A stretch of 64,000 nucleotides of DNA from IMG/VR virus record IMGVR_UViG_3300018080_008188, positions 70,082-134,081 of that record; one strand, written 5' to 3'. Below the pieces are notes generated by a model. It searched no databases. It had not been told where the DNA came from and saw only the letters and a list, made by a program, of their open reading frames with translations. A program made the translations under genes and the position numbers. This DNA is from a virus. Position 1 is the first letter of the stretch, and each line of letters opens with the position of its first letter. Of this stretch, positions 853 to 34,714 are shown one piece after another.

Positions 853-1625
853 TGGCTACCGGACACAGGGTATTTTCAGACCTGTTTGATATTGAGCACT
901 TCGTAAAGCAGGTGGCAGTGTCCCAAGGCAAAAATCTGCTCATCGACTCCCTGCGCGAGCATTTCCGCAAGGACACGTTCTACAGATACGGAACCGACGC
1001 CTTCGGATTTCCGCTCACGCCGGATCTGACCGACCTTCCTCCGGACATCGGCGAGACGCGCACCACGCGCCTTTTCATCGGCGACATCTACAGGATGGAC
1101 AAAAGATACCTTCCGTCAATCACGGTTCGTCAGTCGGGCGGCAGCTACTATGCTATAAGCTTCAACCAGAACGAAACCACGAAATACAGGATCGACCTTG
1201 TGCTGGACGGTTACGGCGGTCGGTCCCTCCTCAAGGTTCCTACGCACAAGGTGTTTGTCGGGGGATGGAACCAGACATTCCAGGTGACAGTGGCTGCTGA
1301 AAGCATCCCAGACCGCGAGGAACTCGCGGACATCGTGTCGTCATACCTGATAGGCGTTACCAGGATTCCCACGCAGGAAGCGGGGCTGTTCATTAAAAAC
1401 GTGTCGTTCGGCGGTGAAAGCGAGGAGGACTGGGCGAACGAGAAGGTTTACCTGCAGAACATCAATGTGGAGACATTCTCGGAATGGAGGCGTGAGGTGC
1501 CCGTAAGCGGTCTTATAGAAACAATAAACTTCTGCTTCGATGTTGGAATATTCGGGTCCGATAGCACAGCAAACATCGTAACCACGCTCGGTCCCGAAGA
1601 TACGACGCTTGAAACCCCGATTTAG
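852..1625 (+). CDS. Virion structural protein, probable tail terminator/neck (tail-completion) protein
   Basis: 257 aa; start overlaps the HNH stop; lies just upstream of the sheath; LPSITVR and QVTVAAES..DREELADIV segments resemble tail-completion proteins; function mostly inferred from synteny. Confidence 0.45.
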   Translation: MATGHRVFSDLFDIEHFVKQVAVSQGKNLLIDSLREHFRKDTFYRYGTDAFGFPLTPDLTDLPPDIGETRTTRLFIGDIYRMDKRYLPSITVRQSGGSYYAISFNQNETTKYRIDLVLDGYGGRSLLKVPTHKVFVGGWNQTFQVTVAAESIPDREELADIVSSYLIGVTRIPTQEAGLFIKNVSFGGESEEDWANEKVYLQNINVETFSEWRREVPVSGLIETINFCFDVGIFGSDSTANIVTTLGPEDTTLETPI

Positions 1626-2119
1626 CCAGACCTTTCCCAATCCCTGACTGCGGCGCAGTTTAGGCATAGCATTTCGTGACCTTCCAGCTCTCTAACCAAT
1701 CTGTCCCACGACATATTTTTCGCCCTGCTGAATGCGAAAACCTTTCCTCCCTTCCAAAACCTGAAGACGGGCGACGGAAACATTCCTTGGCAGTCTGCAC
1801 ATATGCCTCCCCACATAGCGACAGCCGCTTCCACCTTTTCCTCGAATTTTGCCCGCTTGACGCTCTCTTGGCACTGCTTGCAGTAGCTCAGGGGCTTGCC
1901 GCTGCTGCGCCTTAGATGGAATTCTTCCAGGTCTTTTTCGCTGTTGCAGCGAACGCAGTATGCTTTGCCTTCCGGCGGCGACACGATGTACGATCTGCGG
2001 TTGTTGCTACCGAACGGTGAGCAGTCCAGGCAGAACTTTCTGCCAGAAAGCCTGACGGTTTTTCCATCCACATTGATTTGATTGGGGAAATCCTTTCCAC
2101 AGTTGCTACATTTTGGCAT
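1622..2119 (-). CDS. Zinc-finger / degenerate HNH-like protein (165 aa)
   Basis: Start reassigned to ATG 2119 (GGAGG upstream); CSNC, CLDC, CVRC, CKQC, CADC and LCLNC motifs as in phage HNH proteins, but the catalytic His residues are not evident. Confidence 0.6.
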   Translation of the reverse strand: MPKCSNCGKDFPNQINVDGKTVRLSGRKFCLDCSPFGSNNRRSYIVSPPEGKAYCVRCNSEKDLEEFHLRRSSGKPLSYCKQCQESVKRAKFEEKVEAAVAMWGGICADCQGMFPSPVFRFWKGGKVFAFSRAKNMSWDRLVRELEGHEMLCLNCAAVRDWERSG

Positions 2120-2135
2120 GTCGAGCCTCCTAATA

Positions 2136-2218: not shown

Positions 2219-2269
2219 GTCTTGAGGATTACGAATCCTTGGCATAAATCATGTGGAGGACTTCCCCAA

Positions 2270-4795
2270 ATGTCCAATATACCCGGAATTACAGGATATA
2301 TTCAACCTGATGCCCTTTCGCGCACCCGCACCCTTCAGAGGGCGGTTTCCATTCCAGGAGGATTGCGCGTTCTTTGCATCATCGGCGAAGGAAAGCGCGA
2401 AGAGGTCCTGGTGGACTCCGCCATTGGCGGAGGTGCCGATGGGCTGGACCCGACATTCACCAGCGCCGTTGGCGCTGTGGGACGATACTTCCAGACATCT
2501 TTTGCACCCATGGTTGAGAACAGGACCGAACTGTTCAAAAACGGGTCAACACTCAGAATCCTTGAAGACACTATCGATGCACAGTCGTTCTCGACACAAT
2601 ACGACGCTAGGATAGATCCAGAAACAGGTCAAATCGAGCTTCAGGGAGCCTCCATTGTGGATCAAGGGGGGTTGCTGTATAGCGCCAGCACAGGAAATGT
2701 CGGTGACGGATACCTGTCCACTCCTGTCCTTACTGACACAAATGCTCCAGCAGAAACCTGGACTATCAGATGCGCCAGCACCACCAAAGACAGCTATGGC
2801 GCGCCCATACGCGGTCAGGCAACCTTCACGGCGTCCGGAAGCGTAAGCGGGCAGCTGCTTGACGACTACGGACAGGCGTACACCTGGAAAAGCGACGGAA
2901 CGGCTGTCGACAACGGAGTGCTGCGCTTTGCAATATACAATCCGACCGGACAGCCGTTTGCGCAGGGCGACAGGTTCACCATCGAAGTGAGCAGCCATGT
3001 CCTACAGGACAGGGATTCCTTGGAGATCAGATATATTCCGGAGCTTGATATTAATGATCCGGAGACCTTCATCGACCCCGCAAAGCTGTACGAGAAGCAC
3101 GGGCAGCCAAGCCTGACCAACACTCTTTCCCTCGGCGCCCAAATGGCGTACGAGAACGGGGCTGCGGCCATCATGGCTCTACAGGCGGCTCCCCCTCTTC
3201 CGCGCAGGACGTCCGAAATCGTCCTGGCGGCGCGCGATGCGACTACAAGCCTCGGAGGCGCCTCTGGCGGCAGCGATGCTGAAGACTTGATCTTTCCGGT
3301 CGAAGCTCCTGGCAAACCCGACACCGACACCGCTGTTCATTTCTTCGTCATTGGAACGGACGGAGAAGAAACACAGATTTTTCCTAACAAGGTGGACTTC
3401 TATGACCCGGACATCACGGCGGCTTTCGCACAGTATGAAAGCAGCCAGTCCGATACGCTGCTGAAAGCCAGGTTCATGGACCCGGCGCAGACTGGCGTGC
3501 CGTATGCCTATACGGTTGTCAGTGACGATAAAATCGAGCAGGACGGGGCGGACGGATATCTGAACCCGTCTGGTGTGTCCAAGGCGATCTTCACTAGCGC
3601 ATCCATGCAGCTTACATCCGACGACCTAGGGAAAAACCTCGATTTTGTTACCGACACTGTCAATGAGGGGCGCTACGAGATTACGACCGTTATCAGCGCG
3701 ACTAGCGCCGAGGTGACGCGCGCATCCGGGAGCTTTGCGACCGAGACGACAATGAAGTGGCAGCTTCTTGCCTCCTCCGGAGAATCACAGCGTGTGCTGC
3801 TCACCAGCGACCTTGCGCTGGCTGCGGGGCAGGGTCTCAGAATCAGCTATATTGACTACAAGGACGCAGACTTTTTCGATGCCAACTGGGCCGATGCGAT
3901 CAGCGAACTGGAGAAGGTCGAAGCGCAAATTCTCGTTCCCATTCCAACCCAGACATTCAGCGCCATTCAGCAAGCCTTCAGGGTCCATGTCGAGCAAATG
4001 TCAACCATCTTCTATAAGAAGGAGCGCGTCCTATTTACTGGGGCGCAGGCTGGGCTTGATCCCTACAACGTCATCGGAACGGAGCTGGCCGCGGTGGAGG
4101 ACATAGGAATCCTGGAAGGCATCCAAGGAGACGACGCCGAAGAAATCCTTGCCGGAAACATCGAGGACCTCGCCAATTACGGGGTGTCCGCGAGCTTCGG
4201 CGACTCCTTTCGCGTAGTTTACTTCTATCCTGACGAGATCGTCAGGGTTGTCAACGGCTCCAGGGAAACGGTCCCCGGATACTACCTGGCGGCGGCTGCT
4301 GCTGGAAGGACTCAGGGAACGGTCAATGTGTCGATGCCGCTGACATTCAAGACGCTGACCGGATTCACAATCCTGAACAGCAAGCTGTACAGCCCCACGA
4401 TTCTGAATCAGCTTGGAAACGCAGGCATCACGGTCGTACAGCCCATCACGGGCGGCGGCAGGGTCCTTCACGGCAAAACCACCACGCAGAGCGGTGCTGC
4501 CGAGGAGGAGGAGATCTCCATCGTCTTCATCAGGGACCAGCTGTCCAGGACGACGCGCGCAAGGCTGCGCCCGTACATCGGCCAGCCGGAGGACCCGCTG
4601 CAGATTCCGACTCTCATCACGCAGATGACGAAACTGCTCGGGGCGTTCAAGTCCCAGAATCTCATCACCAAGTTCCAGAACCTTTCCGTGACGAGGGACG
4701 ATGTGGAGCCGCGGCAGTTCAATATTCGCGTTGAGGCGCGTCCGAACTACCCGTCCAACTGGTTCTTCGCGGACATCAGCGTCGGTGCCATCTAA
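2270..4795 (+). CDS. Contractile tail sheath protein (841 aa)
   Basis: ATG 2270 with GGAGGA RBS; C-terminal sheath domain (YLAAAAAG...LTFKTLTG...LGNAGITVV...TT...EEISIVFIRD...VTRDDVEPRQFNIRVEARPNYP); followed by tube genes. Confidence 0.9.
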   Translation: MSNIPGITGYIQPDALSRTRTLQRAVSIPGGLRVLCIIGEGKREEVLVDSAIGGGADGLDPTFTSAVGAVGRYFQTSFAPMVENRTELFKNGSTLRILEDTIDAQSFSTQYDARIDPETGQIELQGASIVDQGGLLYSASTGNVGDGYLSTPVLTDTNAPAETWTIRCASTTKDSYGAPIRGQATFTASGSVSGQLLDDYGQAYTWKSDGTAVDNGVLRFAIYNPTGQPFAQGDRFTIEVSSHVLQDRDSLEIRYIPELDINDPETFIDPAKLYEKHGQPSLTNTLSLGAQMAYENGAAAIMALQAAPPLPRRTSEIVLAARDATTSLGGASGGSDAEDLIFPVEAPGKPDTDTAVHFFVIGTDGEETQIFPNKVDFYDPDITAAFAQYESSQSDTLLKARFMDPAQTGVPYAYTVVSDDKIEQDGADGYLNPSGVSKAIFTSASMQLTSDDLGKNLDFVTDTVNEGRYEITTVISATSAEVTRASGSFATETTMKWQLLASSGESQRVLLTSDLALAAGQGLRISYIDYKDADFFDANWADAISELEKVEAQILVPIPTQTFSAIQQAFRVHVEQMSTIFYKKERVLFTGAQAGLDPYNVIGTELAAVEDIGILEGIQGDDAEEILAGNIEDLANYGVSASFGDSFRVVYFYPDEIVRVVNGSRETVPGYYLAAAAAGRTQGTVNVSMPLTFKTLTGFTILNSKLYSPTILNQLGNAGITVVQPITGGGRVLHGKTTTQSGAAEEEEISIVFIRDQLSRTTRARLRPYIGQPEDPLQIPTLITQMTKLLGAFKSQNLITKFQNLSVTRDDVEPRQFNIRVEARPNYPSNWFFADISVGAI

Positions 4796-4823
4796 GGCGC
4801 CGGCGCCCGCGCGCTGAGGAAGC

Positions 4824-5423
4824 ATGGCATCCGAATATCCGCAGACAGGAAGCAGAATCGACGACGACACGGTTCGCACCGGCCTTTCCACGCAGATGGT
4901 GGTCAAGTTCGACCATGCCACCGTCGGCGCGCTTCAGGAGCTTGCGATAAATCAAACGCGGGACATAGCGAGATGGGAGGAGATTGGAACGGACGGAATC
5001 GTCGACTCCCATCCGCGCCATGCGGCGCAGGTCAATCTGTCAGCAACCCGCATAGTGTTCGACGGCCTCAGGCTTCCGGAAGCTTTCGGAAGAGGATTTG
5101 TCAACTTACAGGCTCAGAGATTTCCTTTCGACATCCATATAATCGATCGCTCGGGCGGAGAAGGGGAATTCTCAATTGTCCACACATACCACAACTGCTG
5201 GTTCAACAGATATTCCACGCCGTACAGCGCGGGAAACTACATAATCTCCGAAGGGGCGGACATCTGGTGCGAGTTCGTCACTTCCATGCAGAACGGGAAG
5301 AATGTCGCCATCGGCGGAGCATCCGGCATAACGGTTGAGTCGGACAGCGTCGAGAGAAGCACGGACCTTCTCGGACAGCGCGGCAGCCTTGACTCTGCCG
5401 GGCTACGCACCATGCAGACATAA
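4824..5423 (+). CDS. Tail tube protein 1
   Basis: 199 aa directly after the sheath; EIGTDG, PFDI and HTYHNCWF..YS..Y pattern typical of myovirus tube proteins. Confidence 0.75.
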   Translation: MASEYPQTGSRIDDDTVRTGLSTQMVVKFDHATVGALQELAINQTRDIARWEEIGTDGIVDSHPRHAAQVNLSATRIVFDGLRLPEAFGRGFVNLQAQRFPFDIHIIDRSGGEGEFSIVHTYHNCWFNRYSTPYSAGNYIISEGADIWCEFVTSMQNGKNVAIGGASGITVESDSVERSTDLLGQRGSLDSAGLRTMQT

Positions 5424-5449
5424 AGAAAAAAACCACGGAGGATACGAGC

Positions 5450-6058
5450 ATGACCTATCCGGCAACGGGCTCGACTCTTGACAATGTCAACATTAGCACG
5501 GGCCTCAGCACCCAAATAGTCATCAGGGTTGGGGCTGTCACAGTGGGCGCCGTACAGCAGCTACAGGTTGCGCAAAACCGACCGATCTACAGGGGAGTCG
5601 AAATCGGGCTGGACGGCACGCTTGAGCTTGTGCCGAACCAGAGGACGGAAGTCACCCTGAACATCACAAGGCTGGTGTTCGACAGACTGAGGCTTCCAGA
5701 GGCTTTCGAGCGAGGGTTCATCAACATTCATGCGCAGCGATTTCCGTTCGACATCCAGGTGCTGGACAGGAGCGGCGGCGACGGCGAAAACATCGTGACC
5801 CATGAATATAAAAACTGCTGGTTTCAGCAGCTCCAGACGCCGTACAATGCCGACAACTACATCATCCTTGAGACCGCCACCATACAGGTCGAGGCAGCAA
5901 GCTCGACAGCCGGCGATGGAAACAAGAATGTAGCTAACGGAGGCGTTCGCGGGTTTGAGCCGTCCATCGACGACTACGAGCGCGAAGCCGACAGGGGCGA
6001 GCGGCGCGGCACGATGGATGTTCCAGGCGTCATCGCTGCGGCATTCTCAGAAGAATAG
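5450..6058 (+). CDS. Tail tube protein 2 (paralog of 4824-5423)
   Basis: Shares TGLSTQ, TVGA, LRLPEAF.RGF, AQRFPFDI, DRSGG.GE, NCWF and TPY...NYII with tube 1. Confidence 0.75.
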   Translation: MTYPATGSTLDNVNISTGLSTQIVIRVGAVTVGAVQQLQVAQNRPIYRGVEIGLDGTLELVPNQRTEVTLNITRLVFDRLRLPEAFERGFINIHAQRFPFDIQVLDRSGGDGENIVTHEYKNCWFQQLQTPYNADNYIILETATIQVEAASSTAGDGNKNVANGGVRGFEPSIDDYEREADRGERRGTMDVPGVIAAAFSEE

Positions 6059-6067
6059 CGACCCACG

Positions 6068-6097
6068 GTCCGGCGGAAACTCCGCCGGACTTCTCTT
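6068..6097 (+). terminator. Intrinsic terminator-like hairpin after the tube genes
   Basis: GTCCGGCGGA-AAC-TCCGCCGGAC perfect 10-bp stem followed by TTCTCTT (imperfect U tract, probably leaky). Confidence 0.6.
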
Positions 6098-6206
6098 CCC
6101 CTTCCGCCGGCAGGACGACTATGGCAGGCAAAAGCGACCCATCTTCATCGCATAGCGCTACAACAGAAACCGCCCCCGTTCGGGGAAGAAAGGACAAAGG
6201 TGTACA

Positions 6207-6773
6207 ATGGCAGAATTAAGGCATCCGACCATAGGAAAGGTCGGCAGCGGCGCACAGGTGCCGAATCGCTCCGGAAGCGCCGCAGGCGCATATGTATCAT
6301 CTCCGGCCGGCGACATTCTTTCCGGAGCCGCAGAGGCTGCGGAAAAGCAGCAGGGGCGCGCGGAAGAAGAAGAACATGCGGACATCACGTCTTCGCATAG
6401 CAGAAACGACCTGCAGTCGCTGGTGGAACTGGGAATGGTTGAAGACAGCATAACCATAGGCGCAAAAACATTCCGCATGCATACGCTTGACGACGATACG
6501 CAGGAAAATCTTCTCAAGCGCGCTTCGGAAGCGGGCGGAGCGGACGGATTCCTGATGCTCAGGCGCATGGTGGCCGCCATGGCAATAGAGACGGTCAACG
6601 GAAAGCCTGTCGAGAACTTCGCCGAAGGCTGTGAAAGCGACGACCCGGCGGACAGAAAAATATTCGTCGTTTCGAAGCTACAGAATGTAGTCGTCAACAG
6701 GCTTTATGAGTTCTACGAGCAGCTGGTCGGTCGCAGCAATGAAAACATCAATCCGGAGCAGGTAAAAAACTAG
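6207..6773 (+). CDS. Tail assembly chaperone (G-like product)
   Basis: 188 aa between the tubes and the tape measure gene; ends in the slippery sequence GTA AAA AAC TAG. Confidence 0.7.
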   Translation: MAELRHPTIGKVGSGAQVPNRSGSAAGAYVSSPAGDILSGAAEAAEKQQGRAEEEEHADITSSHSRNDLQSLVELGMVEDSITIGAKTFRMHTLDDDTQENLLKRASEAGGADGFLMLRRMVAAMAIETVNGKPVENFAEGCESDDPADRKIFVVSKLQNVVVNRLYEFYEQLVGRSNENINPEQVKN

Positions 6774-6797
6774 CGAAGGGGCCGTGGCACCGGCTCC
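6764..6797 (+). other. Programmed -1 ribosomal frameshift signal
   Basis: Heptamer A AAA AAC (6764-6770), 7-nt spacer, hairpin GGGGCCG-TGGCAC-CGGCTCC (6778-6797); the -1 frame is open to 7219. Confidence 0.75.
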
Positions 6798-7219
6798 GAT
6801 GGAAGCTCTGCAAAATCTGGGGAGTGCCCGCAGACGACCCGCGTTTCCTGAGAATAAACAACGCCCAATGGGTCTGGTATAGCGCCCAGATAGCGCAGGA
6901 CGAGGATGAAGAGTTTGAGCTGCTGCGCGACATGGCAGAGCACAATGCGATGTTCTGGAACCAGGAAGGCGTAAACCAGGTAAGGCAAGCGAGAAAGCGG
7001 ACATACAAGCTGAGCGACAGTGAGTTCGGAACCATGCTTGAATCCACTTTCGGTCGCAAGCTGAACGTGCCAGACGAGAGCAGTCGCATTCCCTTGGCAG
7101 TCCCGGCGGAAAAGAGCGCACCTTCGTCCGGCGGATGGAAAATGCGCGACGATGTTGATGCTGGAGCATATCTCGGAATGGAGCTTGACGATATTTCATT
7201 CACGCCCTTCAAGGAGTAG
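6770..7219 (+). CDS. Tail assembly chaperone C-terminal (GT-like) segment reached by -1 frameshift; fused product about 337 aa
   Basis: The -1 frame reads LAKGPWHRLRWKLCKIWGVPADDPRF... continuous with the 6824-7219 ORF; its own GTG start looks weak. Confidence 0.7.
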   Translation, partial: LAKGPWHRLRWKLCKIWGVPADDPRFLRINNAQWVWYSAQIAQDEDEEFELLRDMAEHNAMFWNQEGVNQVRQARKRTYKLSDSEFGTMLESTFGRKLNVPDESSRIPLAVPAEKSAPSSGGWKMRDDVDAGAYLGMELDDISFTPFKE

Positions 7220-7224
7220 CGCAA

Positions 7225-9462: not shown

Positions 9463-9474
9463 GAGGAACTTGGC

Positions 9475-15194: not shown

Positions 15195-15197
15195 AAC

Positions 15198-21295: not shown

Positions 21296-21296
21296 C

Positions 21297-21725
21297 ATGT
21301 CGTACGACCTGAAGCTGGAAAACAACGACCTTTCAATCAATCCGGACGGAACCGTCAAGACGGTCAGGGACAATGAAAAGCTGAAGCAGGATATTGTGCG
21401 CGCCATCCTGACGCCCGTTGGCGCTAATGCGTTCCATCAGTGGTACGGAAGCACCATCAATGCCGGCATCGTTGGAAGCGGCATGAGTGCCGGGCAGATA
21501 GAGGCGGAGGCAAAGAGGTCGATCCAGGAGACGCTCAACAACCTGATCTCTCTGCAAAAGACGCAAGCCAGGATACAGTATGTGTCTCCCGGCGAACAGC
21601 TTATGGCGGTTAGGGAAATAGAGGTTCTACAGGACGATATCGACCCGAGGCAGTTTCAAGTGACGGTCTATGCCCTTACAAGGCTTCTGACTCCGGTTGA
21701 AGAGACATTCACGATGTTAGTGTAG
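21297..21725 (+). CDS. Baseplate wedge / sheath-initiator protein (gp25/gpW-like)
   Basis: DLKL...EKLKQDIVRAILTPVG...FHQWYGS motif; 142 aa; precedes the J-like gene. Confidence 0.85.
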   Translation: MSYDLKLENNDLSINPDGTVKTVRDNEKLKQDIVRAILTPVGANAFHQWYGSTINAGIVGSGMSAGQIEAEAKRSIQETLNNLISLQKTQARIQYVSPGEQLMAVREIEVLQDDIDPRQFQVTVYALTRLLTPVEETFTMLV

Positions 21726-28000: not shown

Positions 28001-31000
28001 TTCCACGGTTACGGGCGTCGATCCTGAGATCACCGAATCGGCGTTTCTGGAATGGATCCTTGGAAGGGACCATCTGAGCCTCAAAGAGATGGAGTTGTCC
28101 GGCTCGCCGGAGCCGCCCTCGTATGCTCCGGGAAAATTCGGAAACGGCCTTTTGATTGACGGAGATAGCCAAACGGCGCAAATACCAGCCACATCTAACA
28201 TGAGGTTTGCCGAAGGCACATGGGAGGCGTTCGTAACAACAAAATGGGCCGGACTGGAAAATGACGCGGAACTGACATTTGACTTGCTGTTTGACGGATT
28301 GAGGGTGGCGGATCGCATATTTATAGGGTCCAGCAACCTCAATCCGGAAACTGTCCCGTTCACCATCGATAGATACGACTCTACAGTGCTGGGCAAACCA
28401 ACATCGCTCAGGACGACCAACGGCTTTTTCATATGGTTTGATGCGGATGCCAACAAATGGCGCATGCGCACTCGTGCGCCGATAAGCGAAAGCAGGCTGT
28501 TCACCGGAACAATAACGACCAACGGCGGATTCAACGATGTGGCGGAAGCAGTTTCGGTTGACGGATATGCTGGAGAGTCTGGCGGTGGAATAAGCGAAAT
28601 CAATGACACCCTCATATCGACTGACAGTTCGGTGAAGTTCAGCTTTGTAGTCGACGGGTACGATTTTGCGAACATGACATTCGACTCGTACGGATCGGGG
28701 GATTATGCAGGATACGACGGAATAGATTTTCTTTCCGACAAGGTGCGATACCTGTTCGACACGGGTCCGTCAACCAGCAAAAATAGGATGTCTCTGTACA
28801 AAGATGGCAAAGGTTTTCTGAAGTTTCTGGTCAGGGATGCTAACGGGCGCATAAAGTCGCTAAGCTATAATATAAAAGACTGGGAATACGGAGAAACGCA
28901 TCATGTTGCGACCTCTTGGAAAATAGGCTCTTTCGAACAGCGCGATGAAATGCACCTGTTCGTGGACGGTCAAGAGGTTCCGAACACTTACAGATTCCGC
29001 GGTTCAGTGCCGCCTCCTTCCGGCGCATTGTTCATGGACGAGGCGGGAGAGGTGCTGGAATCCTCCGTGCCACGACCAGCGATGGGCGGATACGACATGA
29101 AGACGACGCAAGGGTCCAATGTCGTTACATTGCTGTCCCACGATCTTGTGACGGAAGGGGCGCAAGTCGGCGACCGCGTGGTTATACTGGACGACACGGA
29201 CGACGGGCTGGCCACGCGCACAGCGCCGTATGTATATGTCCTGAGCGTTGATGGAGAGCATGCCCTTAAGCTGGAGCGTGGTCCGGCAGGATCAGGAGTG
29301 CCGTACAATGCGCAGTCGACGCTTGACGATGTACAGTATTCGGTAAACCAGCTGACGCTCAAGACGAGCGCGGATCCGCAGAATGAAAAGGTGCGCGTGT
29401 TTTCCGTCAGGGCGACCGATGAAGTTGAACTGTTCGGTCCGGACACCACATATCCCGATTATTCGTTCGAGCGCGACGGCTACGAAGATTATGCGGTCGT
29501 CAACAACGGAGCGCCGGTGGGAACAAGCCTTGTGCTAAGAACATACGGTCTGACGCAGCAGGGATGTAGGCAGCTGGTATACATTTGGCCAAACAAGCAG
29601 ACGAACCTCATGAGAACAATAATGCCGCAGCCGACCGCCGTGTCCAAGATATTTGTGACGCAGCTGATAGCGCAGTCCACAAATGTGGAAAGCGGAATTT
29701 TTGCTGTTGTGGCAACAGTCGTTGGCGGTCATATGATACAGCTGCTGGTATCGAACCTGAATTTTTGCCAGCCGTCCAACACGACACATGGGAGAAGACT
29801 GACCGCAACCATCAACGGCGACAATTTCGACTTCTCTGGAGTGAACCAGCTACTGATTAACGGCACGACATACGATGGGTCCGGCACGGAGACACTTTCC
29901 TTCACCAAAACCGGCAGCATGACAACTTCAAAGTATTTCACCAGTATAAGCGGTGTCGTCGCCAGTTTCACATCTACGGATATTACAAGACCCGCAGGAT
30001 ATGTCGAAATGAGGGAGACCGTTCCGATAACGGAATCGGAAAACGGTGGAGACGCCGCCCTTGTCAGGCTGTCGGTGGAAGAGCAGTCTGGGCTAAACGG
30101 AACAGCCTCGGCTGGGCAGCATACATTGTATGACGGATATGCCAGGTTCGGTTCAAGCGACATCGGAAAAACGATAATAGTTTCGTCTCCGCCAGGAGCT
30201 GCCGGCGTATACACGATTTCCAACGTGGCGCTTGACCCGTCCGGAGCAGTAAGGGATTCCAGCACGGTGACGCTGTCCGGAACAGGGCTTCCATGGTCGT
30301 CCTCATACACCAGCATGGCGTGGACGATGTTAAATACATCGTTTGCCGATTCAGGCTTCGCAAACGGCCTGCTTACATTTGAGATAGAAAACTCCGGAGG
30401 CTCACCGTATCTTCTCACCAGGTGCTGGTACGAAGTCGAATTTCCAGCTTTTCTTGTGGTGCCGTGGGATTCTACGCCCGAAACACTGTTTGTTGGCTCT
30501 GACAACTCCGGAAACAACCAGGCAGGCGCAGTGATCGACGAAATGCGCATTCTCAGCGAAGCTTCCGACGACACCGGAAACGGCGAAACAACTCCGAGTT
30601 CTGGAAGGTCGATAACCACAGACGCTTTAGCAGTCAGAGAATATTCAACTACGAACCAAGCGCTTGGGCTGTTTCACTTCAACAACAGCGCAGAGAACGA
30701 AGCCAGCTTTCTGTCGTCTTTTTCGCAGGATGTGTTTCAGAGCGAAAACAGCGTCAATTCGCAATTCGGCCAGTCTGCCGTCTTCAATCGCGCAAACGGA
30801 CATTTGTCTCTGGACAACCAAGGAATATTCCAAAACAACGCAGGGACCGTAGAGTTTTGGATAAGCCCGCTCATGGACACCTATAACGACCCGACAAGAC
30901 GCTATTATGTGGACCTGTCCCCAGAACGCGTCGCCAGCGCAACAGCCCTGTCGCCCTTGGTAGTTCTTCTTCCGTTCAGGGTGCGGAGCGTCAGCGCCGT

Positions 31001-31871
31001 CACCATATCAGGGTCGGCTACAAACTATTTCACGGGAGGGTCACTGTCGTCTGACGGATTACAGATAATTTTGGGTCAGCCGCTTCCGGCGAACACCAGC
31101 ACGGTTTTGGCAACAGTCGTTCCGATAACCAGCCAAGGCGACAGGTTCAGCATATTGAAAGACGAGAATGGAATCCTGAAGCTTTCCGTGTCGGCAAGCG
31201 AAACGGATTATCAGATTTCCGCTCCGGTATATTGGAAAAGAAACACATGGCACCGGGTGTTGGCAGGATGGGACCTCAACAATGAGGATGACCAGGACCG
31301 TCTTGTGCTCATGGTGGACGGATCGGAAAGGGGAATAATCCGATATGGAACCGGTCTCAGGTACGGAGAGGGACATTTGTATGGCATGCCGACGGTGTTC
31401 GGAAGCGCCGACGCCGGATCGACAGCGTCCAGGAACATTCTCGCCGACATCAACTTGCTGGACTTCTTCAGCACCGTCAACATAGGCGGAGACTTTACGG
31501 GGCAGTACCCGGCAGTTGCGCGCATGGACAATATGCGATTCTCTAACTCTTTGCGTTCCATACAGTATCTTGGCGGAGACGGACCAGGAAAACTGATAGG
31601 ACAGGATTTGCTGTACACAAGCAATACGAACACCGCTTTTCCCGTAATCGAGGATGCCCTAACCACGCTTCTTCTGGACTTCGACAGTGACCAGTCGTCT
31701 GTTAGCACGGCAGAAGTCCGGGACGATGCCACGGGCATCTTCGATTTCTATGTGAACATCATAGACTCTTTCGGCCGCATTCCTAACACGGTTGCGGAAA
31801 ACATAATAGAAACGCTGATAAAGCGACTCAAGCCCGCTCACACGCGCGCTTTCGTCGATTTCGAGGATTGA
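25017..31871 (+). CDS. Giant baseplate wedge (P2 gpI-like) protein with Ig-like and LamG/concanavalin-like domains (2284 aa)
   Basis: RETYR...KGPTIPAIK motif and terminal IKRLKPAHT; LamG motifs GKFGNGL, HHVATSW..LFVDG, IDEMRI, GTVEFWI, WHRV..W..LMVDG, MDNMRFS. Confidence 0.65.
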   Translation: MANLRVLGLEVVSNTTIHITFTADLASELGTANVSVEASGSNESDPAVKSVSASGSTLIVTMRPLYPIKQYKITLQSSTDQPFAGASGERLVEDGRTNVLYFIGYEGDNEVRDAIMDSVSGGLYKTDGSLIRDSIRPGADALLRSRHDAGEVRSSRFITVTAEDESHERGSGPTDRLGNEGAFQLLRVGSSATGATSRKTIEFDQFPSDPVSLQQKEAVEEEVSNTSNESNSFTGLLITLANGPVIKLSSLTLVRGANEYEYDIEAYRYGLYNSGYDTDNAYSALDINENQVRLSSSAVGPGFPLPQGSDTIVATYLYKRTGRIVDSDTVVVTSVVPVTRDSVPAVATTFFLEHAPVVDSSGATATSGGVTWLDPSKNFDPMQKHPAFVSEVPFNESSLPSAPGEWAVEYGTGRVVVAGVNGTGTDGTTTVPPVSSYDYLKTFEEGLDYNLFPDLNEIASVSGRNLDQSEHASEISFEYEDTFANGTDFSFSSHVEVLNERIESRAIGEVGLKTLYGPVTNVFRIFNETTGEVYSVSRISGNQVYFSSSTPPALIGVSREAVQFESVSQAQIVVTDTINIIGQTFDVFKVELPNDRIVSATGDSIGASFNTSLSFSDQDVFARELYYDPGDSVSDNLLRLQQDGDYMVDYDGGIAYVAVPAFYGTDIGDASYKRAAAYAGHAHVTSVSNIYRSPSQTASNVKTFALGEIGDRTVEMPDLESAEEGSLQVMSSSGSLYIEPSYDPIIVRHIFQAANLRLSAEPVDFASGASIGSDGSVTLDADGVEVIEPGLEIKDGGARMFVEVKRLSTIASGSVQLAFLYNDASDALFLSKNYAVYDSTADYMAMGSDGYVDSASNRIVLPSGVGSGAAGMSVTARYRAKLVAGATVTANYTPGNIFIDYTYLRDEILVSYEYGDNSLDWSISDALSEGETYFVTYKYGAMRDSLRDNFGVLTGVDELSTIPSSVDRETYRNMTRGALQSFLKGPTIPAIKEIVSTVTGVDPEITESAFLEWILGRDHLSLKEMELSGSPEPPSYAPGKFGNGLLIDGDSQTAQIPATSNMRFAEGTWEAFVTTKWAGLENDAELTFDLLFDGLRVADRIFIGSSNLNPETVPFTIDRYDSTVLGKPTSLRTTNGFFIWFDADANKWRMRTRAPISESRLFTGTITTNGGFNDVAEAVSVDGYAGESGGGISEINDTLISTDSSVKFSFVVDGYDFANMTFDSYGSGDYAGYDGIDFLSDKVRYLFDTGPSTSKNRMSLYKDGKGFLKFLVRDANGRIKSLSYNIKDWEYGETHHVATSWKIGSFEQRDEMHLFVDGQEVPNTYRFRGSVPPPSGALFMDEAGEVLESSVPRPAMGGYDMKTTQGSNVVTLLSHDLVTEGAQVGDRVVILDDTDDGLATRTAPYVYVLSVDGEHALKLERGPAGSGVPYNAQSTLDDVQYSVNQLTLKTSADPQNEKVRVFSVRATDEVELFGPDTTYPDYSFERDGYEDYAVVNNGAPVGTSLVLRTYGLTQQGCRQLVYIWPNKQTNLMRTIMPQPTAVSKIFVTQLIAQSTNVESGIFAVVATVVGGHMIQLLVSNLNFCQPSNTTHGRRLTATINGDNFDFSGVNQLLINGTTYDGSGTETLSFTKTGSMTTSKYFTSISGVVASFTSTDITRPAGYVEMRETVPITESENGGDAALVRLSVEEQSGLNGTASAGQHTLYDGYARFGSSDIGKTIIVSSPPGAAGVYTISNVALDPSGAVRDSSTVTLSGTGLPWSSSYTSMAWTMLNTSFADSGFANGLLTFEIENSGGSPYLLTRCWYEVEFPAFLVVPWDSTPETLFVGSDNSGNNQAGAVIDEMRILSEASDDTGNGETTPSSGRSITTDALAVREYSTTNQALGLFHFNNSAENEASFLSSFSQDVFQSENSVNSQFGQSAVFNRANGHLSLDNQGIFQNNAGTVEFWISPLMDTYNDPTRRYYVDLSPERVASATALSPLVVLLPFRVRSVSAVTISGSATNYFTGGSLSSDGLQIILGQPLPANTSTVLATVVPITSQGDRFSILKDENGILKLSVSASETDYQISAPVYWKRNTWHRVLAGWDLNNEDDQDRLVLMVDGSERGIIRYGTGLRYGEGHLYGMPTVFGSADAGSTASRNILADINLLDFFSTVNIGGDFTGQYPAVARMDNMRFSNSLRSIQYLGGDGPGKLIGQDLLYTSNTNTAFPVIEDALTTLLLDFDSDQSSVSTAEVRDDATGIFDFYVNIIDSFGRIPNTVAENIIETLIKRLKPAHTRAFVDFED

Positions 31872-31894
31872 TATATCCAGCGGAGGAATTCCCG

Positions 31895-34714
31895 ATGAAC
31901 CAAAGGCTGTCTGTAGGACTAAAAAAAGTTAATTATTTCGACGGAATGAAGGTAACGCTAGATACTGTGTCCGACGAGCAATCACGCCATACGGGCATCG
32001 ACGCTGCGACCGTGGCAAATTTCATGGGCAGCGGAGTCGTAGAGCATGCGGCCGATCCGCTTGTAATCTTCGATACGCAAAGCCTCAATTCGACGCAGCA
32101 GGGAATGGCGGACGGCTACAGTTTCGACGGCCAAAATGTTTATGTTGGAAGCCCGCTTGTTTCCGTCAGCGATGCCGTCAAAGGCGTACAGCTGGCCGTT
32201 GTAATGACGGGTCTTGAGCTGGACGGTGCGGAAAAATCCAAGGTGGCTATAATAGGCGACAGCTTTGACGATTCGCTTATCCATGACGATCTCACCTTCC
32301 ATGAAAACGGCACTCAAATCACGCGCGGCAGGTATAAAAGCATCAGGGCGATTCTGTTCAACGACTTCGCAGGCAACCTGTTCGGAAGCAGGTTGCCAGC
32401 CGTTTCCGACGGATACGAATTCATAGGGCGATGCATCATTCGCGAAGCCAAAGCGTTGGAAGTGTCCACGGATACGCTGATGGCATACCAAAATGCGCAG
32501 CCGGACCAGTTCTTCAGCAGCTTTACGCCCTCCGCAGCCACCACCACGCTCAATGGAATGCTACAGGATGCCATAGGAGCTGACAAGTCCCTGTCCGACT
32601 TGGGCATAGGCTTTTCTTCAGTTAGTCAGAGAGAGTTAGTTGCCAGCGATGTGACAACCAGGATAGGGCAGAAATTTCAGGCTGACGGCACAAACATACA
32701 GAAGATTTCTGTTCTCCTGTCAGTCAAGAGAGATGCTACGGCATTGGCCGGTCACGAGTACGATTGGTCGGGACAGATTGTTCTGAGCCTACATGCCCTA
32801 CAGGCGCAAGTGGCTTGCCCGGTGGAGCCTGTTCCTGACAATCTTGAGGATTTCGACCCTGAACCGGCGGTGCTTTCGCAGTTGACGCTGGACCGCGGCA
32901 TGTTGGAAAAACAAGGTGTAGTTCTGGATGGATATGCACAGAAGGTGGATTTCGTGCTCACTGGGTCTACGATATCCGACCCTCAGAACACAACTCTGGC
33001 AAAAGATGCGCATTATGTTTTAACCGTCGGAAGGTCGGGCAATGCCACAACTGGAACGCTTCTTGTGGAAGAGGCGACTCATACTGCCCCGACGGGATAC
33101 ATGGTTGTATTTGACGGCGAATCATGGACAAATGTTGTGGAAAGCGACATGTGGTACGAAATACACGGAGACTATGCCAAGGTGTCCGACGGCATTTCAT
33201 ACCAGGACGGCGTGGGGACGGAAGTCCCGCGCCTTGACACCGACAGCGAGGGGGATGAAACTACATATGTGAAAGGCTACATTCCCTTGTACTCGTCCAG
33301 CAGGTCTGCAGCCAATTTCGTGCTGGTGGAAACGACCTCGGACTACAGCGACCCGCTCCAGGACCCGCGTACCGGCAACAATGTTTCTTCGCGGGTCAAA
33401 CCGGACCCTAACATATCCATTGTGGGAAGCTCTAGCATTTCCGGACTTGTGGCACTCAGCAAGACGCCAGTGGTGCTTGCTAATATGGAGGATGGCAATC
33501 CGCGCGGGAACCCTTCTTCAATTTCCGGAGAATCAGATCTTCCAGGTCTTGTTTACGGCAACAAAATCGACATTATCGACCCCGATGCCGACCTGAGGAA
33601 CCATAATCTTGTGGGCTCCATATTACAGCCAAACATTGCTACGAGCGGAACATATCGAATTATAAAACAGACGCTGTATGCGGACAGCTACGGAGATGTA
33701 AACGGGGATGGCAGCATAACAACGAACGATTTCCAAATCGTAAATTCCTGGCTGCCAGGCGGATACGACCTGTCAAACGCCGCGGACCAGCAAAAGATAA
33801 TGGACGGATATGTTTCCATTGAGCAGGTTCTTAGGGCGGATGTCAACGGAGACGGAAAAGTGGACGCTACGGACGCTGCGCTTATCCAGGCCTATATCGA
33901 CGGCACAATCAGCACGTTTCCGGCAGGAGGGGGGTTCTCCAGGATGAGGTTGGAAGTGGAAGAACTCACGGACCCGCTGGCATCCGATGCGGACATTCCC
34001 AACGACGATTCTGTGTTCGACACATCGCCTTTCTCGTCGGTACCTTTCGAAATCGAATATTTCGCAACATGGATTCCGGACAGGATCTCCATCTGCGACA
34101 TGAGAAGGCTTCTGCCGACAACATTCACTTCCGCTCCCAGCTCGACAGCGTCCGATTGTGACGGTGGAGAAAATGATTTCTTCGTGCCCAACGATCTTAT
34201 GATAGGCGACGGGCAAATTCTGAACGCCGATGGAACACACCATTCCGTGGATTTTGAGGTTGCGCATTTGACAATGATTATACCGGTGACAGATTCTTTG
34301 GGCGCGCCAACATTCATCGACGGATATATGGGAGTCAACTTGTTCAGCACATTTGTTGCGGAATCTGCGGACGGTCAGACAGCCGAAGGGTTTGGCGCTA
34401 TGAAATACGCTGACGGAACATATGTCCAGATATCAGACTTCTCTCTTGGAAAAGTGAAAATTTCAGCAGCTTTACAGTCGCACTCAAACACCTACGGCTC
34501 AAGCCCCATAGACGACATTGTCGGAGTCAACTATGATGCCGCAACCGGTTTGCTCACTTTGTGGATGAAATTTCTGTACGACGACGGGAGCGGAAACATA
34601 CCAGCTGCCCTGAGCACCAAAGTGCTGGTGACTGTATTTCTGAAAAAGGCCGGCTTTGCCAACCAACCGCAAACCATTACAGCAGGACAGGTGAGGACTC
34701 TTTTTGGCGTCTAA
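31895..34714 (+). CDS. Tail fibre/appendage-like protein containing a dockerin-type double Ca-binding repeat
   Basis: ATG 31895 with GGAGG; N-terminal VNYFDGMKVT..TVSDEQ resembles baseplate-attachment motifs; GDVNGDGSITTND and ADVNGDGKVDATDAALIQAYIDGTISTFP. Confidence 0.6.
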   Translation: MNQRLSVGLKKVNYFDGMKVTLDTVSDEQSRHTGIDAATVANFMGSGVVEHAADPLVIFDTQSLNSTQQGMADGYSFDGQNVYVGSPLVSVSDAVKGVQLAVVMTGLELDGAEKSKVAIIGDSFDDSLIHDDLTFHENGTQITRGRYKSIRAILFNDFAGNLFGSRLPAVSDGYEFIGRCIIREAKALEVSTDTLMAYQNAQPDQFFSSFTPSAATTTLNGMLQDAIGADKSLSDLGIGFSSVSQRELVASDVTTRIGQKFQADGTNIQKISVLLSVKRDATALAGHEYDWSGQIVLSLHALQAQVACPVEPVPDNLEDFDPEPAVLSQLTLDRGMLEKQGVVLDGYAQKVDFVLTGSTISDPQNTTLAKDAHYVLTVGRSGNATTGTLLVEEATHTAPTGYMVVFDGESWTNVVESDMWYEIHGDYAKVSDGISYQDGVGTEVPRLDTDSEGDETTYVKGYIPLYSSSRSAANFVLVETTSDYSDPLQDPRTGNNVSSRVKPDPNISIVGSSSISGLVALSKTPVVLANMEDGNPRGNPSSISGESDLPGLVYGNKIDIIDPDADLRNHNLVGSILQPNIATSGTYRIIKQTLYADSYGDVNGDGSITTNDFQIVNSWLPGGYDLSNAADQQKIMDGYVSIEQVLRADVNGDGKVDATDAALIQAYIDGTISTFPAGGGFSRMRLEVEELTDPLASDADIPNDDSVFDTSPFSSVPFEIEYFATWIPDRISICDMRRLLPTTFTSAPSSTASDCDGGENDFFVPNDLMIGDGQILNADGTHHSVDFEVAHLTMIIPVTDSLGAPTFIDGYMGVNLFSTFVAESADGQTAEGFGAMKYADGTYVQISDFSLGKVKISAALQSHSNTYGSSPIDDIVGVNYDAATGLLTLWMKFLYDDGSGNIPAALSTKVLVTVFLKKAGFANQPQTITAGQVRTLFGV

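What the first reader, a model, noticed from the sequence alone, without database searches (positions are those of the whole stretch)
1206..34327. D-G-Y tripeptide recurs across six tail proteins: candidate modification sequon
Seen: by-eye count of 17 DGY motifs, with codons starting at 1206; 2705, 3551 (sheath); 18452; 23727, 23880, 23907 (J); 27561, 28560, 28653, 29475, 30132 (gpI-like); 32111, 32408, 32927, 33803, 34319 (fibre). Related DSYG/DDYG/DIYG motifs also occur. I found none in the tubes, tape measure, hub, spike, gp25-like or 557-aa proteins, and only 3 in roughly 9,000 aa of non-structural proteins. Codon wobble varies (GAC/GAT, GGA/GGC/GGG/GGT, TAC/TAT), which points to a protein-level signal. 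A rough composition estimate expects only a few. Known: Tyr O-glycosylation occurs on some bacterial S-layer proteins, and Tyr sulfation favours acidic neighbours. Inference: DGY marks surface loops modified by the adjacent glycosyl/sulfo/methyl-transferase cluster, or is a docking motif for a decoration protein.
Basis: partly seen in the sequence, partly recalled or inferred. Interest (0 to 1): 0.85.

Follow-up and report, generated by a model that had tools for sequence, protein, structure and literature searches.

The report
DGY tag on huge-phage outer proteins
The outward-facing tail, baseplate, fibre and neck proteins of this uncultured huge phage and its many relatives carry the tripeptide Asp-Gly-Tyr far more often than chance, probably as an attachment signal for sugars added by a conserved phage enzyme, although no modification has been shown.

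Summary
All 17 sites are in-frame DGY. The window's virion proteins carry 17 DGY against 1.9 expected from shuffles, and 1.8-2.9 after correcting for DG-turn bias. In the 134-kb record, DGY is the strongest outlier of all 8000 tripeptides: 44 observed, 6.8 expected, p 2.5e-21. DGF, NGY and EGY are not enriched.

The signal acts at protein level. It persists in 78 related loci spanning 27-57% GC. The same orthologues are DGY-positive or DGY-free in a relative.

Sites lie mostly in loops or insertions and move between orthologues. Pro is excluded at +1. The Tyr is replaced by polar residues, almost never by Phe.

A GT4-type glycosyltransferase domain (window 35048-36247) follows the fibre gene in 63 of 78 loci and occurs in 5 of 5 large relatives. 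The sulfotransferase occurs in 0 of 5 and PrkA in 2 of 5.

My best reading is a tyrosine O-glycosylation sequon, at about 45% confidence. No modification has been shown.

This scan has already noted the same motif on other DNA, in at least 29 genomes. I found no paper describing it.

The parts
852..1625 (+). 257-aa virion-module protein upstream of the sheath; DGY codons at 1206
   Evidence: No Pfam or PHROG family. The G006 orthologue (73% identity) also has 1 DGY.
2222..4795 (+). tail sheath (857 aa); DGY at 2705 and 3551
   Evidence: PHROG tail sheath, 3.3e-12.. The G006 orthologue has 3 DGY.
4824..17474 (+).
Evidence: 0 DGY in all of them, and 0 in their G006 orthologues. Weak PHROG labels.
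17483..19618 (+). 711-aa baseplate-region protein; DGY at 18452
   Evidence: Weak, sub-threshold Invasin_D3 hit. The G006 orthologue has 2 DGY.
19622..21725 (+). 557-aa protein and 142-aa gp25-like baseplate wedge protein, both DGY-free
   Evidence: PHROG baseplate wedge, 1.3e-11, for 21297-21725.
21759..25016 (+). Baseplate_J-like protein (1085 aa); DGY at 23727, 23880 and 23907
   Evidence: Pfam PF04865, 2.2e-22..
25017..31871 (+).
   Evidence: Homologues in 77 of 81 loci searched (L005-L085). The G006 orthologue has 8 DGY.
31868..34714 (+). 948-aa fibre or baseplate protein with a dockerin module; DGY at 32111, 32408, 32927, 33803 and 34319
   Evidence: Pfam Dockerin_1, 2.3e-11. AF2 model, pLDDT 86.9. 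92 aligned homologues average 5.5 DGY against 0.26 expected.
35048..36247 (+). GT-N: conserved GT4-type (GT-B fold) glycosyltransferase domain; candidate enzyme that reads DGY
   Evidence: Found just downstream of the fibre gene in 63 of 78 loci and in 5 of 5 large records. Profile matches GT4 structures. AF2 pLDDT 90 with a GT-B fold. Invariant E291 and near-invariant E299 give an E-x7-E spacing.
36248..37336 (+). second GT4 domain (Glycos_transf_1) fused to GT-N in this phage and its closer relatives only
   Evidence: Pfam, 1.9e-43. Full-length matches occur only in L008, L010, L017, L030 and L032; the others match residues 1-~400.
37343..48140 (+). variable glycan-building cluster: CgeB-like plus GT2 protein, GT2s, three methyltransferases, a sulfotransferase-like protein, Gmd and epimerases
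   Evidence: Pfam. Each member was found in only 0-24 of the 81 loci searched.

Best explanation
DGY, with a weaker D-[AS]-Y-G variant, is a short linear recognition signal on the outer surface proteins of this phage clade. It is most likely read by the conserved phage GT4-type glycosyltransferase encoded directly after the tail-fibre gene (GT-N, window 35048-36247).

Proposed mechanism, all inferred:
1. During late infection GT-N transfers a first sugar from a nucleotide sugar to the phenolic OH of the Tyr. It acts in the cytoplasm, on exposed loops and linkers of sheath, outer baseplate, fibre, neck and decoration proteins.
2. The variable neighbouring enzymes then extend and decorate the glycan. 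These are the second GT4 domain, the GT2s, the CgeB-like GT, the GDP-sugar enzymes and the methyl- and sulfotransferases.
3. Proteins that must pack inside the tail or head are kept free of the motif. These are tube-like proteins, tape measure, hub, major capsid protein and internal head proteins.

Shown here:
- the enrichment, its specificity and its protein-level nature;
- its conservation across the clade;
- its loop location;
- its turnover between orthologues;
- the co-conservation of GT-N.

Not shown:
- any glycan;
- Tyr as the acceptor;
- GT-N acting on protein.
For: 1. Strength and specificity. DGY is 44 observed against 6.83 expected, the top of 8000 tripeptides. DGF is 12/8.4, NGY 2/4.3, EGY 2/6.3 and SGY 4/8.3. 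In the pooled tail proteins of 78 relatives DGY is 986 observed against about 69 expected. DAY is 2.5x, EGY 0.3x, DGF 0.9x and DGW 0.4x (the printed 206 is my script's triple count of the DGY expectation).

2. Protein level. All 50 GAYGGNTAY on the coding strand are in frame. The enrichment holds from 27 to 57% GC. In five large records the coding strand carries 71-130 copies, the other strand 8-26, and the reversed-pattern control 17-50.

3. A trans-acting, lineage-level trait rather than a fold requirement.
- In the fibre family the motif occupies 44 distinct alignment positions.
- A well-supported subclade of 4 homologues (P0170, P0173, P0175, P0185) has 0 DGY, with 26 other GY.
- The same set of orthologues is DGY-positive or DGY-free in this phage and in G006.

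4. Sequon-like grammar.
- Pro at +1 occurs in 1 of 281 non-redundant sites (0.09x). K and R are depleted to 0.2-0.5x from -5 to +6. There is no positive flank preference.
- D-x-Y-G variants are also enriched: DAYG 4 against 0.3 and DSYG 5 against 0.4 in this phage's own virion proteins.
- The neck protein has a tandem DGY linker, which is intact in G006.

5. Exposure proxies. The D of the motif lies in coil or in an insertion at 37 of 44 positions, against 51% coil overall in the AF2 model. At 5 of 6 DGY columns the Tyr is replaced mainly by polar residues. Phe accounts for only 4 of 221 replacements, whereas other Tyr columns are mostly replaced by Phe. This pattern suggests the hydroxyl group matters.

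6. Enzyme link.
- GT-N is found in 63 of 78 loci. The 15 without it are mostly truncated, and one of them has GT-N elsewhere in its record.
- In five large records GT-N is in 5 of 5, the sulfotransferase in 0 of 5 and PrkA in 2 of 5.
- The two contigs of the DGY-free fibre subclade have no GT-N and no other GT in their flanks. The order there is fibre, epimerase, helicase.
- GT-N is a GT-B/GT4 enzyme with the E-x7-E spacing. A chlorovirus GT (3oy2) is among its top structural matches.
Against: - No modification has been observed. Everything about chemistry is inference.
- GT-N's nearest solved relatives act on lipid-linked sugars, small molecules or glucans (PglA, GlgM, BshA, MshA, PimA, glycogen synthase). 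None is a known protein glycosyltransferase.
- Phage GTs also modify DNA or host surface glycans (passage read in PMC12619734).
- The major capsid protein has no DGY, although it should be exposed.
- The co-absence evidence rests on one lineage with short contigs (42.7 and 8 kb) and a different gene order.
- The DGY-poor relative G001 has 5 DGY in its ~42-kb tail module. Its contig ends at the fibre gene, so its GT status is unknown.
- Some sites look structural. One DGY is conserved in 72 of 92 homologues and lies in a strand. In G006, DGY sits at a fixed place in 22-aa repeats and in a '..GYLxxKL' fibre repeat, where it alternates with FGY, PGY and LGY.
- A small GAC codon excess (41/44 against 182/246) is unexplained.
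Confidence: 0.45

Rival explanations
1. DGY is a non-covalent docking or recognition motif. A phage protein such as a decoration, cement or whisker protein or an assembly chaperone, or an environmental or host ligand, binds exposed D-G-Y turns on outer virion proteins. No chemistry is involved, and the neighbouring GT serves something else.
For: The same data on specificity, loop location, outer-protein restriction and turnover fit a short linear binding motif. The tandem DGY linker in the neck protein could recruit several copies of a reader. Several DGY lie within the first 10-26 residues of proteins, where attachment peptides often sit.
Against: No candidate reader protein was identified. 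A three-residue motif in many unrelated folds is a weak binding epitope. Polar replacement of Tyr and the near absence of Phe fit a reactive OH better than an aromatic contact. The co-conservation of GT-N goes unexplained.
Confidence: 0.17
2. DGY marks a covalent modification other than glycosylation, made by an enzyme not yet recognised. Candidates are Tyr sulfation, phosphorylation, nucleotidylylation, oxidation or cross-linking, or chemistry at the Asp-Gly bond.
For: An acidic context poor in basic residues resembles what I recall of tyrosine-sulfation sites. The window does encode a sulfotransferase-like protein and a PrkA kinase (note e1-6164010).
Against: The sulfotransferase is absent from 78 of 78 loci and 5 of 5 large DGY-rich records. 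PrkA is in only 2 of 5. The methyltransferases are in 0-2 of 78 loci. No other conserved modifying enzyme was seen next to the tail module.
Confidence: 0.13
3. DGY is only a favoured structural turn (a D-G turn followed by an aromatic strand start) that has spread by descent and convergence in beta-rich outer proteins. No trans-acting reader exists.
For: D-G is a common beta-turn, from general knowledge. One site is conserved in 72 of 92 homologues and lies in a strand. DGY occupies a fixed position in 22-aa repeats and in a fibre repeat in G006.
Against: Turn propensity does not explain the demand for Tyr over Phe, Trp or His (DGF 0.9x, DGW 0.4x), nor for Asp over Asn or Glu. The enrichment survives correction for DG and GY counts. 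Homologues of the same fold can have 0 DGY in 1150-1960 aa. Sites move between 44 positions. Equally beta-rich inner tail proteins have none.
Confidence: 0.1
4. The signal is at nucleotide level (a DNA or RNA motif GACGGATAY), or it is an artefact of gene calling or composition.
For: GAC is used in 41 of 44 motifs against 182 of 246 for other DG. GACGGATA occurs 28 times on the + strand and 2 times on the - strand.
Against: All 50 occurrences are in frame 0, with none in frames 1 or 2 of called genes. The Gly and Tyr wobble positions vary. The GGA preference is the general GGA-TAY codon-pair habit. The enrichment persists in relatives from 27 to 57% GC, where the codons differ.
Confidence: 0.02

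Closest known systems
Virion glycosylation of mycobacteriophages by phage-encoded glycosyltransferases (Freeman et al. 2023, Cell Host Microbe). I saw it only as cited and summarised in a passage of PMC12619734; the paper itself is not held.
   Same: Glycosyltransferase genes carried by a tailed phage next to structural genes. The proposed target is the virion's own proteins, and the proposed role is a glycan coat on the particle.
   Different: According to the passage read, the glycans there sit at the C-termini of capsid and tail-tube subunits. Here the capsid and tube-like proteins carry no motif. The candidate sites are an exact D-G-Y tripeptide scattered over loops of sheath, baseplate, fibre and neck proteins, in huge uncultured myophages. 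Glycosylation is not demonstrated here.
Tyrosine O-glycosylation of bacterial S-layer proteins (Paenibacillus alvei SpaA, Thermoanaerobacter). Passages read in the review PMC2943079.
   Same: O-glycosidic linkage of Glc or Gal to Tyr on a self-assembling surface protein is established chemistry in bacteria.
   Different: In the passages read, the glycan is transferred by an O-oligosaccharyltransferase, most likely during secretion. No Wzy_C-type transferase was found in the 134 kb held, and virions assemble in the cytoplasm. The passages I read define no sequon for the S-layer system ('sequon' and 'consensus' each occur 0 times in that review). The primary paper (Zarschler 2010) is not held.
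Bacterial and viral glycosylation sequons with an acidic determinant or atypical viral sites: PglB D/E-X-N-X-S/T, Bacteroidota D-S/T-hydrophobic, chlorovirus capsid glycosylation. All recalled from memory, not from any call.
   Same: A short position-flexible motif, an Asp as determinant, exclusion of Pro next to the acceptor, and gain and loss of sites between relatives.
   Different: Different acceptor residue (Tyr proposed), different motif, and a soluble GT4-type enzyme instead of a membrane oligosaccharyltransferase. None of these systems uses D-G-Y.
GT4 family of retaining GT-B glycosyltransferases (PglA, BshA, MshA, PimA, glycogen synthase, chlorovirus NY2A B736L-like 3oy2)
   Same: GT-N shares the fold, profile similarity and the E-x7-E spacing.
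   Different: 15-17% identity to the top structural matches (12-18% over the listed matches). A low-confidence insertion at residues 56-93. The acceptor is unknown, and none of the listed neighbours is a protein-tyrosine glycosyltransferase.

Membership tests
GT4-type GT-B glycosyltransferase (for window 35048-36247) | Two Rossmann-like domains (GT-B fold) | tested here: met
   AF2 model with pLDDT 90 and pTM 0.87. Foldseek probability 1.00 and TM 0.6-0.7 to PglA, GlgM, BshA, MshA and PimA.
GT4-type GT-B glycosyltransferase (for window 35048-36247) | Sequence-profile similarity to GT4 / Glycos_transf_1 enzymes | tested here: met
   A profile of 46 homologues hits 7mi0 at 1.5e-10, GlgA at 1e-7 and 3oy2 at 2.8e-5. 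On the whole 762-aa protein, Pfam Glyco_trans_1_2 matches residues 276-396.
GT4-type GT-B glycosyltransferase (for window 35048-36247) | E-x7-E motif in the C-terminal domain | tested here: met
   E291 is invariant and E299 nearly invariant in 46 sequences. The motif definition comes from a passage of PMC2943079.
Phage virion glycosylation system | Phage-encoded glycosyltransferase genes adjacent to structural genes | tested here: met
   GT-N lies directly after the fibre gene in 63 of 78 loci. The Pfam GT cluster spans 35048-48140.
Phage virion glycosylation system | Glycan demonstrated on virion proteins | not testable with these tools
   The clade is uncultured. The fibre protein finds no isolate among 50,697 phage records. 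No proteomic data were available.
Phage virion glycosylation system | The enzyme acts on protein rather than on DNA, lipid or polysaccharide | not testable with these tools
   The structural neighbours have non-protein acceptors.
Linear modification sequon (N-X-S/T type) | Short exact motif enriched over composition, specific at every position | tested here: met
Linear modification sequon (N-X-S/T type) | Position-flexible: sites gained and lost between orthologues and not required by the fold | tested here: met
   44 distinct positions in 92 homologues. A DGY-free subclade exists.
Linear modification sequon (N-X-S/T type) | Located on accessible surface loops | tested here: inconclusive
   By DSSP of the AF2 model, 37 of 44 positions are in coil or insertions, and Tyr is replaced by polar residues. 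No coordinates were available to compute solvent exposure, and some sites lie in strands or repeats.
Linear modification sequon (N-X-S/T type) | Presence of the motif tracks presence of the modifying enzyme across lineages | tested here: inconclusive
   Positive side: 63 of 78 loci and 5 of 5 large records. Negative side: only one DGY-free lineage, on short contigs without GT-N. One DGY-poor lineage has unknown GT status.
S-layer-type tyrosine O-glycosylation (O-OTase pathway) | Wzy_C/PglL-type O-oligosaccharyltransferase | tested here: not met
   PF04932 gives 0 matches in the 134-kb record, while the control rings in 9 of 14 genomes. The record is only about 25% complete.
Tyrosine sulfation | A sulfotransferase conserved together with the motif | tested here: not met
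   The Sulfotransfer_3 protein (42386-43306) is found in 0 of 78 loci and 0 of 5 large DGY-rich records.

The most novel reading that the evidence does not exclude
D-G-Y (with D-[AS]-Y-G) is the sequon of a soluble, phage-encoded GT4 enzyme. This enzyme O-glycosylates tyrosine on more than 15 outer virion proteins, giving a whole clade of huge phages (genomes up to ~470 kb, 27-57% GC) a self-made glycan coat. It would be the first defined tyrosine-glycosylation sequon and the first virion-wide glycosylation code in phages.
Probability: 0.4. Interest if true: 0.9.

Novelty: new variant of a known kind. Interest (0 to 1): 0.75.

Why it matters
If the tag is a glycosylation site, these phages coat their sheath, baseplate, fibres and neck with sugars made by their own enzymes. 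Such a coat could affect stability, adhesion, host recognition and escape from grazers or defences.

It would also provide a three-residue, portable tyrosine-glycosylation signal together with its enzyme, which would be useful for glycoengineering.

Even if the chemistry turns out to be different, a tripeptide enriched about 14-fold when pooled over the tail proteins of 78 related loci (about 21-fold in the fibre family) marks which proteins face outward. It also reveals a recognition system that nobody has described.

The hypothesis can be tested directly by co-expressing two genes and running mass spectrometry, without culturing the phage.

Tried and rejected
- Nucleotide-level signal. Rejected: all occurrences are in frame, the trait is independent of GC, and the GGA bias is explained by codon pairing.

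- Stop-codon recoding. This was prompted by an in-frame TGA replacing the Gly codon of a DGY in the neck gene. Rejected as a genome-wide feature: TGA ends 39 of 107 called genes, and no other such case was found.

- tRNA-based explanation. There are no tRNA genes in the 134 kb.

- Longer hidden motif or repeat family. The flank logo of 281 sites shows no positive preference.

- Isolate relatives. None: tblastn of the fibre protein against 50,697 phage records found nothing.

- More DGY-free lineages with context. Scans with P0173, with alignments of the DGY-free proteins and with the L086 fibre returned only DGY-positive relatives or the same contigs. The one metagenome scan returned L091 and L092.

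- Complex prediction. GT-N plus the 60-aa DGY linker after the TGA in the neck gene gave 'no answer' (score 0.01, below the mark). This is no evidence either way.

- Solvent exposure. It could not be computed because model coordinates are not given to the script box.

- Supplementary files of papers were closed and not consulted. They could hold site lists for S-layer or mycobacteriophage glycoproteins.

- Script slips. The script added the DGY expectation three times; the corrected expectation is about 69. One search timed out and was repeated with FastTree.

Full report
**What is there.** The window is the second half of a 134,081-bp virus record, at positions 70082-134081. An identical fibre protein also lies on a 254,806-bp contig, and the record is estimated to be about 25% complete. 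It is therefore a fragment of a huge phage.

- a 257-aa protein (852-1625);
- the sheath (2222-4795; PHROG tail sheath);
- a 711-aa protein (17483-19618);
- a Baseplate_J-like protein (21759-25016);
- a 2284-aa protein (25017-31871);
- a 948-aa fibre or baseplate protein with a dockerin module (31868-34714).

The ORFs between the sheath and the 711-aa protein have none, nor do the 557-aa and gp25-like proteins. My own labels for these ORFs are weak.

**Is it more than chance?** Yes.
- In the window's 17 virion-module ORFs (10,858 aa) there are 17 DGY. Per-protein shuffles give 1.91 +/- 1.39, with a maximum of 7 in 2000.
- Conditioning on the number of DG or GY dipeptides gives 1.83 or 2.89.
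- The non-structural part of the window has 3 DGY against 1.26 expected. The first 36 kb of the record has 0 against 1.53. Genome 36-71 kb (decoration, neck, fibres, tailspike-like proteins) has 24 against 2.24.
- Over 107 + strand ORFs (41,563 aa), DGY is 44 observed against 6.83 expected, Poisson p 2.5e-21. It is the most extreme of all 8000 tripeptides; the runner-up has p 2.3e-6.
- The motif is specific at each position: DGF 12/8.4, DGW 3/2.5, NGY 2/4.3, EGY 2/6.3 and SGY 4/8.3.

**Protein or nucleotide level?**
- GAYGGNTAY occurs 50 times on the + strand. 43 are in frame 0 of the genes I had called and none is in the other two frames. The other 7 are also in frame, inside + ORFs that my crude caller had replaced by spurious - strand ORFs.
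- The - strand has 3.
- GGA is used in 26 of 44 motifs, but GY not preceded by D also uses GGA in 44 of 71. This is a general codon-pair habit.
- GAC is somewhat over-used (41/44 against 182/246 for other DG), and I cannot explain this.
- The strongest argument comes from relatives (next section): the enrichment holds from 27% to 57% GC.

**Relatives.**
- The fibre protein has 120 homologues in the large protein collection, on contigs up to 461 kb.
- 92 aligned homologues carry on average 5.5 DGY against 0.26 expected. Only some sites are shared: one in 72 of 92 sequences and one in 57 of 92. Altogether DGY occupies 44 different alignment positions.
- Homologues at 27-35% identity still carry 2-9 DGY, apart from one with none (P0117).
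- 78 IMG/VR loci around fibre homologues show the same pattern. The 10 kb upstream (the Baseplate_J-like and 2284-aa orthologues) holds 3-19 DGY against 0.5-0.9 expected. The fibre gene holds 1-12 against about 0.2. The 10 kb downstream usually holds 0-1 against about 0.5.
- Pooled over 233 tail proteins (319,699 aa), DGY is 986 observed against about 69 expected, or 14x. The printed 206 is my script's triple count. DAY is 2.5x and all other D-x-Y, x-G-Y and D-G-x are near or below 1, except DGT (2.7x), DGQ (2.1x) and WGY (5x).
- In five large records, four of them at least 90% complete, the pattern occurs 71-130 times on the coding strand and 8-26 times on the other. A reversed-pattern control gives 17-50.
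- An orthologue-by-orthologue comparison with record G006 shows that the same proteins are DGY-positive in both phages. These are the decoration-like protein, 100-aa, 176/255-aa, 375/463-aa and 569/531-aa proteins, the neck protein, the tailspike-like protein, the 1797/1545-aa and 257-aa proteins, the sheath, the 711-aa protein, J, the 2284-aa protein and the fibre.
- The same proteins are DGY-free in both: the major capsid protein at 88% identity, the internal head proteins, the tube-like proteins, the tape-measure-like protein, and the 1654-aa, 758-aa, 557-aa and gp25-like proteins.

**Grammar and location.**
- From 281 non-redundant sites, no flanking residue is favoured. Pro at +1 is almost forbidden (1 of 281, 0.09x). 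Lys and Arg are depleted to 0.2-0.5x from -5 to +6.
In this phage's virion proteins DAYG is 4 against 0.3 and DSYG is 5 against 0.4, while DAY not followed by G is 2 against 3.6. One DAYG overlaps the usual 'YGD' start of a dockerin repeat; that consensus is recalled, not tested.
- In the AF2 model of the fibre (pLDDT 86.9), the D of the motif lies in coil, or in an insertion relative to the model, at 37 of 44 positions. Coil makes up 51% of the model overall.
- At 5 of the 6 columns where most Tyr belong to DGY, the Tyr is replaced in other homologues mainly by polar residues (T, N, S, K, E, Q, D); in the sixth it is replaced mostly by Ile and Leu. Phe accounts for only 4 of 221 replacements. 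Ordinary Tyr columns are replaced mostly by Phe. This is what one expects of an exposed residue whose hydroxyl group matters.
- Against a purely 'loop tag' picture: one site is in a strand and highly conserved. In G006, DGY also sits at a fixed place in five 22-aa repeats, and in a '..GYLxxKL' fibre repeat where it alternates with FGY, PGY and LGY.
- The neck protein carries a low-complexity run of five to six DGY. It is intact in G006. In this record it follows an in-frame TGA.

**Not a property of the fold.** A profile search of 1.8 billion representatives found 1165 family members.
- A well-supported subclade of four (P0170, P0173, P0175, P0185; 1153-1958 aa) has 0 DGY but 26 other GY.
- The relative G001 has the same gene order as this phage but only 5 DGY in its whole ~42-kb tail module.

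The motif therefore behaves as a trait of the phage lineage acting on many proteins at once. This points to a trans-acting reader.

**Which reader?**
- Directly after the fibre gene lies a 762-aa protein made of two GT-B glycosyltransferase domains.
- Its first ~400 residues (GT-N) are found just downstream of the fibre gene in 63 of 78 loci. The 15 without it mostly have under 3-4 kb of downstream sequence, and one of them has GT-N elsewhere in its record.
- GT-N is present in 5 of 5 large records.
- The sulfotransferase-like gene is in 0 of 78 loci and 0 of 5 large records. PrkA is in 2 of 5. The methyltransferases are in 0-2 of 78 loci.
- GT-N is a GT4-type enzyme. Its profile matches PDB GT4 chains (best 1.5e-10). 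Its AF2 model (pLDDT 90) has a GT-B fold, with PglA, GlgM, a chlorovirus GT (3oy2), BshA, MshA and PimA as nearest structures. E291 and E299 give the E-x7-E spacing.
- The two contigs of the DGY-free fibre subclade (L091 with 25 kb held, L092 with 8 kb) have no GT-N and no other glycosyltransferase. The order there is fibre, epimerase, helicase. That fibre gene is not next to J-like genes, so this is another kind of phage.

**Reading.** The best-supported explanation is that DGY is a recognition signal on outward-facing virion proteins, read by GT-N. It is most simply a tyrosine O-glycosylation sequon, with the variable neighbouring enzymes building the rest of the glycan. I put this at about 0.45.

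The reasons for not going higher are:
- no modification has been seen;
- GT-N's solved relatives act on non-protein acceptors;
- the capsid protein lacks the motif;
- the co-absence evidence is essentially one lineage.

The rivals are a non-covalent docking motif (0.17), another covalent chemistry by an unrecognised enzyme (0.13), a purely structural turn (0.10) and a nucleotide-level signal or artefact (0.02).

**Comparison with what is known.**
- Virion glycosylation by phage GTs is known for mycobacteriophages. There the glycans sit at C-termini of capsid and tail-tube subunits. I know this only from a passage in PMC12619734, because the original paper is not held.
- Tyr-linked glycans are established on bacterial S-layer proteins, where they are transferred by an O-oligosaccharyltransferase (passages of PMC2943079).
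- Neither system uses D-G-Y, a soluble GT4 as proposed initiating enzyme, or outer tail proteins as targets.
- No Wzy_C-type transferase is present in the 134 kb held.
- Full-text searches gave nothing on this subject: 'DGY motif' returned 0 papers; 'DGY' or 'Asp-Gly-Tyr' returned 393 papers, of which the 25 listed were unrelated; 'DGY' with 'phage' and 'tail' returned 1 unrelated paper.
- Within this scan, the same motif has already been noted on other DNA: 35 notes in at least 29 genomes, with follow-ups reaching similar readings. Other windows of this same genome were also noted. My tests were run independently of those notes and agree with them.

**Verdict.** The chemistry is unproven.

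Noticed in passing
L003:17739-17741 (genome 57739-57741, upstream of the window): The neck-protein gene is split into 345-aa and 297-aa ORFs by one in-frame TGA. The TGA stands exactly where relative G006 has the Gly codon of the first DGY of a tandem DGY linker; G006 has a single 661-aa ORF. It may be a nonsense variant, an assembly error or a read-through site. TGA is otherwise a normal stop here (39 of 107 genes).
   Followed up: partly
window 48245-49681: A tubulin/FtsZ-family GTPase (Pfam PF00091, 6.9e-15), like the PhuZ-type tubulins I recall from jumbo phages. It is conserved downstream of the glycan cluster in 13 of the 81 loci searched and in 4 more loci.
   Followed up: no
window 49946-52498: A helicase (ResIII + Helicase_C) interrupted by an intein with Hint and LAGLIDADG homing-endonuclease domains. 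The homologues in L091 and L092 are shorter and show only helicase domains in Pfam.
   Followed up: no
L095:3238-4629 (record G006): A 463-aa orthologue of genome ORF 46377-47504 contains five tandem 22-aa repeats, each beginning with DGY ('..I-DGY-S....PVK.VSPNR....'). This phage's own copy has 1 DGY.
   Followed up: no
L094:676-4830 (record G006): A 1384-aa fibre-like protein lying outside the main virion module has 12 DGY. Many lie in a repeated '..D-G-Y-L-x-x-K-L' unit that alternates with FGY, PGY and LGY versions.
   Followed up: no
window 31868-34714: The fibre or baseplate protein carries a dockerin type I module (residues 608-677). This implies a cohesin-like partner somewhere on the virion or the host; none was looked for.
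   Followed up: no
L091:1849-5193 (metagenome contig of the DGY-free fibre homologue): A ribonucleotide reductase large subunit interrupted by an intein with a LAGLIDADG domain. The same contig has a polysaccharide pyruvyl transferase but no glycosyltransferase.
   Followed up: no
record G005, 285316-287301 (- strand): The PrkA homologue of a 442-kb relative contains one in-frame TGA within an otherwise full-length match (65% identity).
   Followed up: no
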